Assembly: GCA_964523405.1 (NCBI GenBank)
Contig: CAZGAQ010000004.1
Coordinates: forward strand, 76,984-140,983
Origin: an uncultured Planctomycetales bacterium
GTDB lineage: Bacteria; Planctomycetota; Phycisphaerae; UBA1845; Fen-1342
DNA: 64,000 nt
Direction: 5' to 3'
A model generated the notes under the pieces. That model saw nothing but the letters and a program-made list of their open reading frames with translations, made no database searches and was not told the DNA's origin. A program made the translations under genes and the position numbers. Positions 16,323-19,373 of this stretch are shown here, in pieces (position 1 is the first letter of the stretch; each line of letters starts with the position of its first letter).

Positions 16323-19300
16323 ATGAAGCGAACGCGCTGGGGACTGGTGCTCGGGTGCGCCGTGCTGTGCCTGCCGGCCGCGTGCCGGCGGGAAACCTCG
16401 CCCGAACCCAATCAACCGCTCGGCAGCCAGCCCACCACGACCCCCACCGCCACCCAGCCGGTCCTGCACCTCGCCACGCCCCAAGAGCTGGCGCAGCGTA
16501 GGCTGTACACCTTCACGGAGGAGGAGGTCGACCGCTACCTGCCCTATGTGCGCGCCCAGGAGCCCAATCTGCCGCTGCGGGCCGTACGCCTCGGCCGCCA
16601 GAACATCGGCCAGCCCTACGACCTCTACCTCCTCGGCGAATTTCCCTTCGAGTTCTACGACACCGACCCGCTCTACTGCCTGTCGCACAGCGACTGCCTG
16701 ACGTTCTGCGAGCACATGTACGCCATGGCCCTGTCCCACGACTGGTGGGACTTCCTGCGCACCCTCCAGCGGCTCCGCTACCGCAACGGCGTCATCGGCA
16801 TGCTGACCCGCAACCACTACACCGAGTCCGACTGGGACCGCAATAACGCCTTCCTCTTCGAAGACCTGACCGCCCAACTCGGCCACGGCCAGGCCTGCGT
16901 CCCGATGCAAGAGAGAATCAACCGGGCAAAGTTCTTCGCCCGGTTCGGTATCGGCCAGGACCTGCCCGTCGAAGACTTCCGCGACGTCTACATCCCCAAG
17001 GAAAACGTGCCCGGCATCCTCGCCGAACTGCGGACCGGCGACTTCGTAAACATCGTCCGCGGCGACCCCAACTCCCAGTTCGTCGGCCACACCGGCCTCA
17101 TCGCCCTGGACGACGACGGCACCGTGCACTTCCTGCATTCGGCGATCCCGGCCGTGCGCGAGCAGCCGTTGACCGACTTCATCGAGAAAGACCGCAAGTG
17201 CATCGGGATTCGAATTCTGCGCCTGCGGCCGGACGCGGAGGAGCGCCTGGCGGCCGACCGGGCTACCCCGGCACAGCCGCCGACCGACGTGAGCGCCGCC
17301 GCCGTGCAGGCCGCTTTGGCCAAGTCCCCGCTGATGAGTACCGGGGCACCGGTGGGCTATGCTGAGGATTGGGTACACGCCATGCGCATGCAGTCCTGCC
17401 GTCTGACCGTCGACACCATGCCCGATCCCAACTTCCAAACCGCCGTCGCCGCCGCCGACCAGCGCATCGCCGCCGAGCTCGACATCCCCGAACCCAATCG
17501 CGCCTTCGGCGTGCTCGACTTGACGGCCGGACGCTTCGCCGCCGTGCGTCCGGACGAAATGTTCTACGGCGCCAGCGTGCCGAAGATCTGCATCGTCGCT
17601 GCCTATTTCGACGCCCACCCCGACGCCGCCCGGCAACTCGACCCGGACGTCGAGCGCGAACTCCAGCTCGTCATCAAGCGCTCCGACAATGAGCTCGCGG
17701 CCAAGTACAGCCAGCTCGTCGGGCTCGACCGTATCCAGGCCATGATCAACTCGCCGCAGTACAAATTCTATGACCGCGAGCACGGCGGCGGATTGTGGTG
17801 CGGCAAACACTACGGCCTCGAGCAGCCGCGCCTGGGCGACCCCCTCAAGGACCACTCGCACGGCGCAACCGTGCGGCAGTGCCTCCGCTACTACCTGCTC
17901 CTCGAGCAGGGCAAGCTCGTCAACGCCGCGGTCTCCGCAAGACTGAAGCAGATCTTCGCCGCCCCGCAATTCGAGTTCCACAACGAGAGCTTCGTCCGCG
18001 GACTGAACGGCCGCAACGTCACCATCCTGCGTAAGGGCGGCCTGTGGGAAGACTGGCACCTCGACACCGCACGCGTGGAACACGCCGGCCGCGTGTACCT
18101 CCTGGCCGGCATGACCGAGCACCCCAAGGGACAGGAATACCTGGCGCGGATGGCGGCGGCCGTGGACGACCTGCTGTGCGGACCACAGCCGGCGCTGCCG
18201 TATACGCACAAGTTGGTCTTGCACGAGCAGGCCGCGGACTTCAAGGCCGGCGTGTGCCGCGTGCGCCCGTGGTCGCCTCCTACGACAACATCCGCACCGG
18301 CCGACAGCCAGCCGACGACGACCGCGAGCGCAACCACCACGGCTAGCGCTCCCGGTGCAGCCAGCGCCCCAGCCCCCGAAGACACATCGCCCGCTCGGCC
18401 TCCAACTGTGGACAAAGACCGCCTCGTCTTGACCTGCCCCGGTGACGGACAGGAGGTGGTCTACGAATCGCCGCTCCTGCCGGCCGGCCTGTACTTCAAC
18501 GAGGCCGTGCTCTCCTGGAACGTCGATGTCCCCACCGGCGCCGGCTTCTGGATCGAGGTGCGCGTCGGCCGGGCGCACGAGAACACGTGGACACCGTACC
18601 TGTATCTCGATGACTGGGGCACAGTGCCCGCCGGCCCCCGCCTCACCCAGTGCGAAGGCGGCAAGATCGACACGGACTACTTCAAGAGCACCGCAACCTT
18701 CGACCGTCTGCAGTACCGCCTGCACGCCCTCGGCCCGGCCGACACACCGGTGCACGTCCGCCGCATCGGCGTGTGCTTCACCGACTCCACCGGCATCCCG
18801 CCCGCCCTGCGCCCGCCGGCCGACCCGCGTCCGCCCGCCCCACCGAGCGCTTGGCAGCGCCGCCTCCCCGTGCCCTTCCGTTCCCAGAAAACCGAGCGCG
18901 CGGAGATGAAGCACAAAATCTGCAGCCCCACCTCAGTCTCCATGGTCCTCGCGTACCGCGGCATCCAGCACACCGCCGAGGAGGTGGCCGACGTCGCCTT
19001 CGACCCCGCGCACAATATCTACGGCAACTGGCCACGCAATGTCCAGGCCGCCTACAGCCTGGGCGTGCCGGGTTACCTGGCGCGCTTCTCCAACTGGCGC
19101 GACGTCGAGCGCCTCATCGCCGACGGCACCCCGCTCATCATCTCCATCCGCTACGCCCGCTCGGGCGCTCTGCGCAACGCCCCCTACGACGACACCGACG
19201 GCCACCTCATCGTCCTGACCGGCTTCGACGCCGAGGGCCGCGCGGAAATCAACGACCCCGCCGTCGCCACGGCCGACAAGGGCCAGCGCCAGTACTACCG

Positions 19301-19373
19301 CGAAGACCTCGAAGAAGTGTGGATGCGCCCCACCGGCGGCCTGGCCTACGTGCTCCTGCCGAGCGTTCCCTAG
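16323..19373 (+). CDS. lipoprotein with three domains: DUF1460 (amidase-like) / class A beta-lactamase-like serine hydrolase / peptidase C39-like
   Basis: Lipobox LCLPAAC. N-terminal DUF1460-like (YLPYVRAQEPNLP...CLSHSDCLTFCEHMYAMALSHDWWDF). Middle domain with SVPK (SxxK), SDN and KGG (KTG-like) motifs. C-terminal C39-like (KICSPTSVSMVLAYRG...DGHLIVLTGFD). Confidence 0.85.
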   Translation: MKRTRWGLVLGCAVLCLPAACRRETSPEPNQPLGSQPTTTPTATQPVLHLATPQELAQRRLYTFTEEEVDRYLPYVRAQEPNLPLRAVRLGRQNIGQPYDLYLLGEFPFEFYDTDPLYCLSHSDCLTFCEHMYAMALSHDWWDFLRTLQRLRYRNGVIGMLTRNHYTESDWDRNNAFLFEDLTAQLGHGQACVPMQERINRAKFFARFGIGQDLPVEDFRDVYIPKENVPGILAELRTGDFVNIVRGDPNSQFVGHTGLIALDDDGTVHFLHSAIPAVREQPLTDFIEKDRKCIGIRILRLRPDAEERLAADRATPAQPPTDVSAAAVQAALAKSPLMSTGAPVGYAEDWVHAMRMQSCRLTVDTMPDPNFQTAVAAADQRIAAELDIPEPNRAFGVLDLTAGRFAAVRPDEMFYGASVPKICIVAAYFDAHPDAARQLDPDVERELQLVIKRSDNELAAKYSQLVGLDRIQAMINSPQYKFYDREHGGGLWCGKHYGLEQPRLGDPLKDHSHGATVRQCLRYYLLLEQGKLVNAAVSARLKQIFAAPQFEFHNESFVRGLNGRNVTILRKGGLWEDWHLDTARVEHAGRVYLLAGMTEHPKGQEYLARMAAAVDDLLCGPQPALPYTHKLVLHEQAADFKAGVCRVRPWSPPTTTSAPADSQPTTTASATTTASAPGAASAPAPEDTSPARPPTVDKDRLVLTCPGDGQEVVYESPLLPAGLYFNEAVLSWNVDVPTGAGFWIEVRVGRAHENTWTPYLYLDDWGTVPAGPRLTQCEGGKIDTDYFKSTATFDRLQYRLHALGPADTPVHVRRIGVCFTDSTGIPPALRPPADPRPPAPPSAWQRRLPVPFRSQKTERAEMKHKICSPTSVSMVLAYRGIQHTAEEVADVAFDPAHNIYGNWPRNVQAAYSLGVPGYLARFSNWRDVERLIADGTPLIISIRYARSGALRNAPYDDTDGHLIVLTGFDAEGRAEINDPAVATADKGQRQYYREDLEEVWMRPTGGLAYVLLPSVP

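What the first reader, a model, noticed from the sequence alone, without database searches (positions are those of the whole stretch)
16323..19373. Unusual tri-domain lipoprotein: DUF1460 amidase-like + class A beta-lactamase-like + C39-like peptidase
A single 1016-aa lipoprotein combines three cell-wall-enzyme-like folds with apparently intact active-site motifs (SVPK, SDN, KGG; Cys in KICSPTSVS for the C39-like domain). Such a fusion suggests a dedicated peptidoglycan remodelling or degrading machine, which would be notable in a Planctomycetes-like organism, or a secreted antibacterial effector. It is divergently paired with a metallophosphoesterase-PQQ propeller gene.
Basis: partly seen in the sequence, partly recalled or inferred. 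Interest (0 to 1): 0.6.

Follow-up and report, generated by a model that had tools for sequence, protein, structure and literature searches.

The report
Lipoprotein with three cell-wall-peptide hydrolase domains
This gene encodes a membrane-anchored protein that joins three different enzymes, each predicted to cut the peptide part of bacterial cell wall; it belongs to an uncharacterised but widespread family in Phycisphaerae (Planctomycetota), so it is real and interesting but not unique.

Summary
Window 16323-19373 (+) is a real 1016-aa gene. It has a lipoprotein-type signal and four folded modules:
- an AmiA-like/DUF1460 NlpC/P60 cysteine amidase;
- a class-A-beta-lactamase-fold serine enzyme, closest to the DD-peptidase PBP-A;
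- a C39_2 papain-like cysteine peptidase.

All catalytic residues are intact and nearly invariant across 105-238 homologous domains.

The architecture is not a one-off. At least 73 proteins and about 27 species-level genomes, all Phycisphaerae/Planctomycetota MAGs, carry it. The modules also occur alone, in pairs, or fused to VanX-type D-Ala-D-Ala dipeptidase, NAGPA or transglutaminase-like domains. Relatives sit next to VanX, CE7 acetyl esterase, NAGPA and GH20/GDSL genes, and to the same Metallophos-PQQ gene that is divergent here.

Best reading: an envelope-anchored enzyme that takes apart peptidoglycan stem peptides and muropeptides during turnover or catabolism. It is unlikely to be a beta-lactamase and very unlikely to be an antibacterial effector. 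A role as the missing cell-separation amidase of Planctomycetota is not excluded. No biochemistry exists for this family; all functions are inferred.

The parts
16323..19373 (+). Complete CDS, 1016 aa: lipoprotein signal, AmiA-like amidase, PBP-A-like serine enzyme, beta-sandwich, C39_2 peptidase
   Evidence: ORF and translation. Codon-position GC 0.68/0.47/0.88. More than 100 homologues at 45-64% identity.
16323..16385 (+). Signal peptide with lipobox Cys21 (MKRTRWGLVLGCAVLCLPAAC). A low-complexity tether follows, to about aa 55.
   Evidence: Cys21 is at least 90% conserved in alignment A1. Most homologues have a hydrophobic stretch followed by L-[AS]-G-C. The query lipobox itself is atypical (Pro at -3). 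No dedicated predictor was available.
16500..17237 (+). AmiA-like / DUF1460 NlpC/P60 cysteine amidase module (aa ~60-305); catalytic C125, H256, H272
   Evidence: Pfam PF07313, E 1.9e-26. PDB hits 2p1g, 2im9 and 4h4j/4q5k (B. uniformis AmiA), with the Cys and both His aligned. C/H/H are present in 105 of 105 domains. The C-H-H triad of DUF1460 is described in PMC10318531.
17250..17405 (+). Helical connector (aa ~310-361), found only in the fused forms and modelled with three short helices
   Evidence: AlphaFold model m7106c8d81de4: helices at model residues 16-49, pLDDT 87-93. Stand-alone homologues start at about aa 355.
17406..18188 (+). Class-A-beta-lactamase-fold serine enzyme, PBP-A-like (aa ~362-622). 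Motifs S418-x-x-K421, S454-D-N456, K571-G-G573. Family-specific invariant residues: K495-H496-Y497, R503, D506, S512-H513, D581.
18240..18407 (+). Thr/Pro/Ala/Ser-rich low-complexity linker (aa ~640-695)
   Evidence: Read from the sequence. These columns are nearly unoccupied in homologues.
18411..18788 (+). Jelly-roll-type beta-sandwich module (aa ~697-822), always found with the C39 module
18858..19364 (+). Peptidase_C39_2 papain-like cysteine peptidase module (aa ~846-1014); Q855, C867, H961, N977-D978
14016..16196 (-). Divergent neighbour: secreted Metallophos (calcineurin-like phosphoesterase) + PQQ_2 beta-propeller protein, 726 aa
   Evidence: Pfam. An orthologue at 52-60% identity lies next to the family gene in 11 related loci, 8 of them divergent and within 350 bp. 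No other window neighbour is conserved.
16224..16252 (+). Promoter-like site TTCAAA-17-GATAAT (TG-extended) in the 126-bp divergent intergenic region. SD-like GGGAG lies at 16311-16315.
   Evidence: Consensus scan: 1 site found against 0.2 expected. Sequence read. This is a consensus match only.
35805..37817 (-). GH20 beta-N-acetylhexosaminidase, possibly part of the same pathway but 16 kb away
   Evidence: Pfam GH20b + GH20. It is 47-49% identical to GH20 genes that lie 0.4-2.2 kb from family genes in L015, L026 and L036. The link is by inference only.

Best explanation
The gene encodes a lipoprotein tethered in the cell envelope. It carries three hydrolases that act on the peptide part of peptidoglycan fragments.

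Proposed order of action (inferred):
1. The AmiA-like NlpC/P60 cysteine amidase (C125/H256/H272) cuts the MurNAc-L-Ala bond and frees the stem peptide from muropeptides. Characterised Bacteroides AmiA does this on GlcNAc-1,6-anhydro-MurNAc-peptides.
2. The PBP-A-like serine enzyme (S418/K421, S454/N456, K571) acts as a D-stereospecific DD-carboxypeptidase or DD-endopeptidase. It removes terminal D-Ala or opens 4-3 cross-links.
3. The beta-sandwich/C39_2 unit (Q855/C867/H961) cuts a further bond inside the stem peptide. The sandwich probably acts as a binding or positioning module.

In many relatives a VanX-type Zn dipeptidase is fused or adjacent and would hydrolyse released D-Ala-D-Ala.

The enzyme therefore works as a one-polypeptide disassembly line for cell-wall turnover products or scavenged cell-wall debris. 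It is comparable to the proposed Bacteroides BT1087 (alpha/beta-hydrolase + AmiA) periplasmic recycling fusion.

What is shown: gene, domains, folds, catalytic residues, family distribution, fusions and neighbourhoods.
What is inferred: substrates, bond specificities, order of action, and localisation.
For: - Domain and fold identity.
- Catalytic residues are essentially invariant: AmiA C/H/H in 105 of 105 domains; Bla S418 in 235 of 238, K421 in 234, S454 in 237, N456 in 235 and K571 in 238; C39 Q/C/H in 206 of 206.
- Characterised relatives act on peptidoglycan peptides. AmiA hydrolyses GlcNAc-anhMurNAc-peptide, and BT1087 fuses AmiA to a second peptide-trimming domain (PMC4600125). PBP-A is a DD-carboxypeptidase/DD-endopeptidase that lacks the omega-loop Glu (PMC11189452).
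- Rosetta-stone pattern. The modules occur alone, in pairs, as the full set, and fused to VanX (PF01427), NAGPA (PF09992) or transglutaminase-like domains. Bla modules of the different fused classes intermix.
- Neighbourhoods of relatives: 43 of 52 Planctomycetota loci have at least one of the following:
  - VanX, downstream or fused, in 16 loci;
  - the Transglut_core + class-C-type Beta-lactamase gene in 6 loci, 5 of them also carrying the VanX domain;
  - AXE1/CE7 esterase in 14;
  - NAGPA in 14;
  - Metallophos-PQQ in 11;
  - GH20 or GDSL in 9.
- VanX acts on a free dipeptide and GH20 is typically an exo-acting hexosaminidase (both from general knowledge). These point to soluble fragments rather than intact sacculi.
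- C39_2 is listed as a catalytic domain of phage lysins (PMC8223927), and its viral fold matches are lysins.
- The lipoprotein signal is conserved.
Against: - No member of this family, and no close relative of the Bla-like or C39 modules, has been assayed.
- The AmiA-like module is only distantly related to B. uniformis AmiA (E 1.8e-6 for the single sequence), so specificity for anhydro-muropeptides cannot be assumed.
- The window itself lacks VanX, AXE1 and NAGPA. It has no muropeptide permease or other recycling genes next to the gene.
- Stand-alone Bla-like genes in Verrucomicrobiota and Acidobacteriota show no informative context.
- A tethered multi-hydrolase with long linkers would suit action on the sacculus equally well.
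- The K-x-G middle residue is unusually variable (S/A/W/G/N). Invariant K-H-Y, S-H and D residues of unknown role suggest an active site different from known PBPs.
Confidence: 0.55

Rival explanations
1. Autolysin for remodelling the cell's own sacculus or for daughter-cell separation. The lipoprotein would cut intact peptidoglycan at growth or division sites, replacing the canonical Amidase_3 enzymes and their activators, which Planctomycetota lack.
For: - Rivas-Marin et al. (PMC5147048) report that AmiA, AmiB, NlpD and EnvC are not found in Planctomycetes, while Phycisphaerales divide by binary fission without FtsZ.
- The family is conserved across Phycisphaerae with intact catalytic residues.
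- It has a lipoprotein tether and flexible linkers.
- C39-like folds occur in phage lysins and in the pseudomurein endoisopeptidase PeiR.
Against: - Characterised AmiA acts only on soluble degradation products (PMC4600125).
- No recognised wall-targeting domain (LysM, SPOR, AMIN, SH3b, PG_binding) was detected.
- Neighbours of relatives are of a catabolic type: VanX dipeptidase, CE7 esterase, GH20.
- Many genomes carry only half of the architecture.
- No division or cell-wall-synthesis genes are nearby.
Confidence: 0.2
2. Beta-lactam resistance or catabolism. The class-A-like domain would hydrolyse beta-lactams, possibly together with cephalosporin-deacetylase-like (AXE1) and class-C-like neighbours in relatives.
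For: - Pfam Beta-lactamase2 hit with SxxK, SDN and KxG motifs.
- Relatives have AXE1 and PF00144 genes adjacent.
Against: - No invariant Glu was found in the omega-loop region; only an acidic residue that shifts position between 500 and 501.
- The omega-loop Glu is the key difference between class A beta-lactamases and PBP-A (PMC11189452).
- The nearest structure is the DD-peptidase PBP-A.
- About 50% identity is kept between phyla, and the domain is obligatorily fused with wall amidase or peptidase modules. This points to a housekeeping substrate.
Confidence: 0.04
3. Secreted antibacterial effector that lyses competitors' cell walls.
For: - It has multiple lytic-type domains.
Against: - It has a lipoprotein signal rather than a secretion-system marker.
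- No coding-like ORF lies in the 676-bp downstream gap that could encode an immunity protein.
- The family is found throughout Phycisphaerae, and its G+C does not differ from the surrounding window.
- The fetched loci never held more than one family gene.
Confidence: 0.04
4. Protein or peptide processing. The C39 domain would be a leader-peptide protease working with the ABC exporter encoded downstream (20050-22026).
For: - Classical C39 peptidases serve ABC bacteriocin exporters.
- An ABC_membrane + ABC_tran gene lies 676 bp downstream.
- C39 peptidase domains of such exporters are among the fold matches.
Against: - The ABC gene is not conserved next to any homologue. Only generic ATPase-domain hits at 25-33% identity were found, at varying positions.
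- The domain is of the free-standing C39_2 type and is not fused to a transporter (PMC10318531).
- It is periplasmic, whereas leader-cleaving C39 domains are cytoplasmic (general knowledge).
- Its constant partners are wall-peptide enzymes.
Confidence: 0.03

Closest known systems
AmiA (DUF1460, PF07313) of Bacteroides uniformis (PDB 4H4J/4Q5K) and the B. thetaiotaomicron fusion BT1087 (alpha/beta hydrolase + AmiA)
   Same: - NlpC/P60-type cysteine amidase with a Cys-His-His triad; all three residues align.
- Predicted location in the envelope (periplasmic in the Bacteroides pathway proposed in PMC4600125).
- BT1087 shows that AmiA is fused to a second stem-peptide-trimming enzyme for sequential processing (PMC4600125).
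   Different: - The relationship is distant (phmmer E 1.8e-6 to 4h4j).
- The partner domains here are a PBP-A-like serine enzyme and a C39_2 peptidase, not an alpha/beta hydrolase.
- The protein is lipoprotein-tethered.
- Substrate specificity is untested.
PBP-A (Tll2115) of Thermosynechococcus elongatus (PDB 2J7V), a class-A-beta-lactamase-like DD-carboxypeptidase/DD-endopeptidase
   Same: - SxxK, SxN and K-x-G motifs are present.
- No conserved omega-loop glutamate (PMC11189452).
   Different: - Only about 20% identical.
- The spacing from SxxK to SDN is 36 residues, against 61 in PBP-A.
- The K-x-G middle residue is variable.
- Extra invariant residues: K495-H496-Y497, S512-H513, D581.
- It forms its own family, about 50% identical across Planctomycetota, Verrucomicrobiota and Acidobacteriota.
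Peptidase_C39_2 (PF13529) proteins: B. anthracis 3ERV, phage lysin catalytic domains; pseudomurein endoisopeptidase PeiR (8Z4H) as a fold relative
   Same: - Papain-like fold with Gln/Cys/His/Asn(Asp).
- Free-standing rather than fused to an ABC transporter.
- Relatives are associated with cell-wall lysis.
   Different: - It is always preceded by a jelly-roll beta-sandwich that packs against it (pTM 0.92).
- No member close enough to transfer a bond specificity has been characterised.
E. coli-type peptidoglycan recycling and catabolic enzymes (AmpD/AmiD, PBP4/5/7, LdcA, MpaA, DdpX) - functional analogues, cited from general knowledge
   Same: The same proposed chemical steps: MurNAc-L-Ala amidase, DD-peptidase, stem-peptide endopeptidase, D-Ala-D-Ala dipeptidase.
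   Different: - Those are separate proteins, several from different protein families (for example Zn amidases rather than a Cys amidase), and partly cytoplasmic.
- Here the steps are concatenated in one envelope lipoprotein.

Membership tests
AmiA-like / DUF1460 (PF07313) NlpC/P60 amidase | Profile match above the curated cut-off, over the full domain length | tested here: met
   93.2 bits against a cut-off of 27; profile positions 3-200 of 202. PDB hits 2p1g, 2im9 and 4h4j.
AmiA-like / DUF1460 (PF07313) NlpC/P60 amidase | Cys-His-His catalytic triad | tested here: met
   C125, H256 and H272 align with the Cys and His residues of 2p1g and 4h4j. They are present in 105 of 105 family domains. 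The triad is described in PMC10318531.
AmiA-like / DUF1460 (PF07313) NlpC/P60 amidase | N-acetylmuramoyl-L-alanine amidase activity specific for 1,6-anhydro-muropeptides | not testable with these tools
   Needs an enzyme assay. Known only for B. uniformis AmiA (PMC4600125).
Class A beta-lactamase | Class A fold with S-x-x-K, S-D-N and K-[TS]-G motifs | tested here: met
   [not shown]
Class A beta-lactamase | Invariant omega-loop glutamate (Glu166) that activates the deacylating water | tested here: not met
   No invariant Glu lies between helices H6 and H8 (aa 476-516). An acidic residue shifts between positions 500 and 501, and invariant K495-H496-Y497 occupy the region. Caveat: the mapping uses motif spacing and predicted secondary structure, not a superposition.
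Class A beta-lactamase | Beta-lactam hydrolysis | not testable with these tools
   Needs a nitrocefin or penicillin assay.
PBP-A-like low-molecular-weight DD-peptidases | Closest fold and serine-active-site motifs, without the omega-loop Glu | tested here: met
   [not shown]
PBP-A-like low-molecular-weight DD-peptidases | DD-carboxypeptidase/DD-endopeptidase activity and penicillin binding | not testable with these tools
   Needs Bocillin-FL labelling and muropeptide assays.
Peptidase_C39_2 (PF13529) | Profile match and papain-like fold with Gln, Cys, His and Asn/Asp | tested here: met
   [not shown]
Classical C39 bacteriocin-processing peptidase (PF03412) | N-terminal domain of an ABC exporter that cleaves double-glycine leaders | tested here: not met
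   It is not fused to a transporter. The downstream ABC gene is not conserved with the family. The Pfam best hit is C39_2, not C39.
Bacterial lipoprotein | N-terminal signal peptide ending in a lipobox with an invariant Cys | tested here: inconclusive
   Cys21 is at least 90% conserved, and most homologues have a canonical L-[AS]-G-C. The query has LPAAC, with an atypical Pro at -3. No dedicated predictor was available.

The most novel reading that the evidence does not exclude
This family may be the long-sought peptidoglycan-splitting machinery of Phycisphaerae. These are planctomycetes that divide by binary fission without FtsZ and lack AmiA/AmiB, NlpD and EnvC. On this reading the NlpC/P60-type amidase, the PBP-A-like DD-endopeptidase and the C39-like peptidase act together on the septal sacculus, possibly controlled by the conserved divergent Metallophos-PQQ partner.
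Probability: 0.15. Interest if true: 0.8.

Novelty: new variant of a known kind. Interest (0 to 1): 0.45.

Why it matters
Peptidoglycan hydrolysis in Planctomycetota is poorly understood. They make peptidoglycan but lack the canonical septal amidases and their activators (PMC5147048).

This family gives three concrete, testable candidates in one polypeptide, together with a set of co-occurring genes: VanX, CE7 esterase, NAGPA, GH20/GDSL and Metallophos-PQQ. Together these outline a cell-wall turnover or cell-wall-debris catabolic pathway in a class that is abundant in sediments and soils.

The work also picks out a highly conserved and uncharacterised branch of the class-A-beta-lactamase fold. 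It is about 50% identical across three phyla, has more than 1200 members, and is currently annotated as 'beta-lactamase class A' or 'serine hydrolase'. It is probably a D-peptidase. This matters for reading environmental resistome surveys.

Tried and rejected
- NCBIfam scan: no family found.
- PDB searches for the Bla-like and C39 modules: nothing significant for the single sequence or for profiles. The best Bla profile hit was only E 0.17, to 2j7v. Fold search was needed instead.
Discarded.
- Xu et al. 2014 (the DUF1460 structure paper, PMC4255150) is not held. AmiA facts come from PMC4600125 and PMC10318531.
- Context of stand-alone Bla-like genes in three long contigs: no shared neighbours.
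- Long ORFs that contain the Bla module in L053, L055 and L064: no further Pfam domain, so they are probably over-extended ORFs.
- ABC exporter downstream as a C39 partner: not conserved.
- Immunity-gene search in 19374-20049: no coding-like ORF.
- Rfam and tRNA scans: nothing at or next to the gene.
- Model coordinates could not be downloaded, so active-site geometry and the residue occupying the Glu166 position could not be checked.
- The representative-library HMMER search was not run. The distribution was judged to be established well enough.
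Full report
**1. The gene is real**

Window 16323..19373 (+) is an ATG-initiated ORF of 1016 codons. Its codon-position G+C is 0.68/0.47/0.88, the coding signature of this ~67% G+C window. A GGGAG Shine-Dalgarno-like sequence lies 8 nt upstream. A sigma-70-like TTCAAA-17-GATAAT site lies in the 126-bp divergent intergenic region.

A 1632-aa ORF on the opposite strand (14016..18914) is a high-G+C artefact. Only its 3' part is a gene: 14016..16196, starting MTRVRYL. It encodes a signal peptide, a calcineurin-like metallophosphoesterase and a PQQ_2 beta-propeller. 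The stated divergent pairing is therefore correct.

**2. Domains**

Pfam supports all three assignments above the curated thresholds:
- AmiA-like (formerly DUF1460), aa 91-291, E 1.9e-26;
- Beta-lactamase2, aa 397-597, 28.7 bits against a cut-off of 22;
- Peptidase_C39_2, aa 848-980, E 2.9e-17.

The AmiA-like module also matches solved structures by sequence: 2p1g, 2im9, and 4h4j/4q5k (B. uniformis AmiA).

The other two modules have no significant PDB sequence match, so I modelled them with AlphaFold from family alignments:
- aa 310-640: pLDDT 93.6;
- aa 695-1016: pLDDT 94.9, pTM 0.92.

Against predicted viral structures, the best matches are proteins named lysozyme, endolysin or tape measure.

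**3. Catalytic residues**

I used the 46-sequence full-length alignment and HMM-aligned modules from 360 retrieved proteins.

| Module | Residue(s) | Conserved in |
|---|---|---|
| AmiA-like | C125, H256, H272 | 105/105 |
| Bla-like | S418 | 235/238 |
| Bla-like | K421 | 234/238 |
| Bla-like | S454 | 237/238 |
| Bla-like | N456 | 235/238 |
| Bla-like | K571 | 238/238 |
| Bla-like | G573 | 237/238 |
| C39_2 | Q855, C867, H961 | 206/206 |

- The amidase residues form the Cys-His-His triad described for DUF1460 in PMC10318531. They align with the Cys and His residues of the solved structures.
- The query's KGG is a minority form of a K-x-G motif. The middle residue is S (152), A (39), W (22), G (11) or N (11).
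- The omega-loop glutamate separates class A beta-lactamases from PBP-A (PMC11189452). It has no invariant counterpart here. An acidic residue shifts between positions 500 and 501, while K495-H496-Y497, R503, D506 and S512-H513 are invariant.
- I therefore do not file the module as a beta-lactamase. It is a PBP-A-like serine enzyme with an active site decorated in a family-specific way.

**4. Localisation**

The N-terminus has a basic n-region, a hydrophobic core and Cys21. Cys21 aligns with the lipobox cysteine (L-[AS]-G-C) of most homologues and is at least 90% conserved. The query's own lipobox (LPAAC) is atypical. Lipidation is probable but not certain.

A low-complexity tether follows the signal. 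A Thr/Pro/Ala-rich linker (aa ~640-695) separates the two halves of the protein.

**5. Distribution**

- The protein search returned more than 100 homologues at 45-64% identity. Those that carry a source name are MAGs named Phycisphaerae, Phycisphaerales, Planctomycetota/Planctomycetes, Planctomycetia or simply 'bacterium'. They are annotated only as DUF1460/AmiA-like domain-containing protein, D-alanyl-D-alanine dipeptidase, beta-lactamase class A, C39 family peptidase or hypothetical.
- I scanned one genome per species (GTDB). Among the best 80 loci:
  - about 27 have the full four-module architecture;
  - about 13 have AmiA-Bla only;
  - about 13 have Bla-sandwich-C39 only;
  - 27 have stand-alone Bla-like genes, about 50% identical, named as Verrucomicrobiota or Acidobacteriota in all but one locus.
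- That stand-alone family has more than 1200 members, named 'serine hydrolase' or 'beta-lactamase class A'.
- The sandwich-C39 unit also exists alone (112 of the 360 proteins retrieved by the three searches) and fused to VanX. The C39 module never occurs without the sandwich.
- Other variants add a C-terminal VanX-type Peptidase_M15, an N-terminal NAGPA phosphodiester glycosidase, or a transglutaminase-like domain.
- The Bla modules of the three fused classes intermix by nearest neighbour. This indicates repeated gain and loss of modules.
- The architecture is therefore a recurrent family feature and not a singular fusion.

**6. Gene neighbourhoods**

In the window, the only neighbour shared with relatives is the divergent Metallophos-PQQ gene. 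It is 52-60% identical in 11 loci, and 8 of those are divergent within 350 bp.

Clustering ORFs in the 52 Planctomycetota loci revealed further recurrent partners:

| Partner | Loci |
|---|---|
| VanX-type dipeptidase, directly downstream or fused (5 as part of the giant gene below) | 16 |
| Giant gene with Transglut_core + class-C-type Beta-lactamase (PF00144), directly downstream; 5 of the 6 also carry the VanX domain | 6 |
| AXE1/CE7 acetyl esterase, mostly directly downstream | 14 |
| NAGPA, mostly directly upstream or fused | 14 |
| GNAT-containing protein | 11 |
| GH20 hexosaminidase and/or GDSL esterase | 9 |

Of the 52 loci, 43 have at least one of these or the Metallophos-PQQ gene. 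The window lacks most of them. It does encode an orthologous GH20 (47-49% identity) 16 kb away, at 35805-37817. The ABC exporter 676 bp downstream is not conserved with the family. The gap between the two genes holds no coding-like ORF.

**7. Mechanism**

The evidence that bears on mechanism:
[quoted passage not shown] In B. thetaiotaomicron, BT1087 fuses AmiA to a second stem-peptide-trimming domain for sequential periplasmic processing (PMC4600125).
- PBP-A is a DD-carboxypeptidase and DD-endopeptidase (PMC11189452).
- VanX-type enzymes hydrolyse free D-Ala-D-Ala (general knowledge).
- C39_2 is counted among the catalytic domains of phage lysins (PMC8223927).

Together with the fusion pattern and the neighbourhoods, the best-supported model is an envelope-tethered disassembly line for peptidoglycan fragments. 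The amidase frees the stem peptide. The PBP-A-like module trims D-Ala or opens cross-links. The sandwich-C39 unit cuts within the peptide.

Whether the fragments come from the cell's own turnover or from scavenged cell-wall debris cannot be decided here. Peptidoglycan is described as a major substrate in sediments (PMC13601601). I give this model 0.55.

The main rival (0.2) is action on the intact sacculus for growth or cell separation. It is attractive because Planctomycetes lack AmiA/AmiB, NlpD and EnvC (PMC5147048).

Three other readings are each unlikely, for the reasons given with each rival explanation:
- beta-lactamase;
- antibacterial effector;
- leader-peptide processing.

**8. Novelty and limits**

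Every domain family is known, and multi-catalytic wall hydrolases are common. My full-text searches found only six papers that mention DUF1460. The two I read for it did not describe this architecture, and the titles of the other four point to unrelated topics. My other searches on C39_2, PBP-A and Planctomycetes peptidoglycan did not turn up this architecture either. No member of the family has been assayed.

I rate it a new variant of a known kind, of moderate interest.

All functional statements are inferences from homology, fusion and context. The mapping of the omega-loop is by motif spacing and predicted secondary structure only, because model coordinates could not be inspected.

Noticed in passing
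window 33442-33609 (-), upstream of ORF 30969-33230 (-): A c-di-AMP (ydaO-type) riboswitch, Rfam RF00379, 57.4 bits against a gathering score of 38. It lies directly upstream of a 753-aa protein with an SPFH/Band_7 domain. I am not aware of SPFH/Band_7 genes as a described target of this riboswitch (from memory, not checked).
   Followed up: partly
window 19374-20049: The 676-bp gap downstream of the gene has no coding-like ORF. It holds a hairpin CGTCAGGC-GCCTCT-GCCTGACG at 19406-19427, without a T tract. It also holds a 31-bp tandem repeat, 2 copies at 90% identity, at 19541-19602, and short heptamer repeats at 19856-19939.
   Followed up: partly
L004:10762-13968 (+); also L003, L006, L010, L018, L041, directly downstream of the family gene: A second giant multi-hydrolase gene. 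It combines a VanX-type Peptidase_M15, a Transglut_core cysteine-protease-like domain and a class-C-type Beta-lactamase (PF00144), about 1070-1200 aa in total. It looks like a parallel 'three wall-peptide enzymes in one protein' design. It is absent from the window.
   Followed up: partly
window aa 476-516 and 570-581 of the protein (about 17748-17870 and 18030-18065): The Bla-like family has invariant K495-H496-Y497, R503, D506, S512-H513, R570 and D581. In contrast, the middle residue of K-x-G is free to be S, A, W, G or N. The invariant KHY sits roughly where class A enzymes have W165-E166-P167, judged by spacing. Its role is unknown.
   Followed up: partly
window 14016-18914 (-): A 1632-aa antisense ORF overlaps most of the gene. 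This is a typical high-G+C artefact. Only the last 726 codons (16196 down to 14016) are a real gene.
   Followed up: yes
window about 50000-53000: GC skew changes sign sharply, from about -0.26 at 48-50 kb to +0.23 at 52-54 kb. Cumulative skew reaches its minimum near 51-52 kb. This could be a replication origin or terminus, or a strand-bias boundary. ORFs in 51.5-57.3 kb fell below the GC3 > 0.80 (at least 100 aa) filter, except for two short ones.
   Followed up: no
window 47467-48765 (+) and 38316-39368 (+): A second PQQ_2 beta-propeller protein (432 aa), and a protein with an N-terminal prepilin-type methylation motif. Proteins of both kinds are, from memory, frequent in Planctomycetota genomes.
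   Followed up: no
L040 (JANQQE010000021.1) and L069 (CAYZJP010000004.1): Family genes on contigs of MAGs labelled 'Alphaproteobacteria bacterium' and 'uncultured Klebsiella sp.'. These are probably binning or labelling errors rather than true hosts.
   Followed up: no
L076:91-720 (-), Thermoanaerobaculia MAG: A VanX-type dipeptidase lies 3.9 kb from a stand-alone Bla-like gene in an acidobacterial genome. This hints that the Bla-VanX link may extend beyond Planctomycetota.
   Followed up: no
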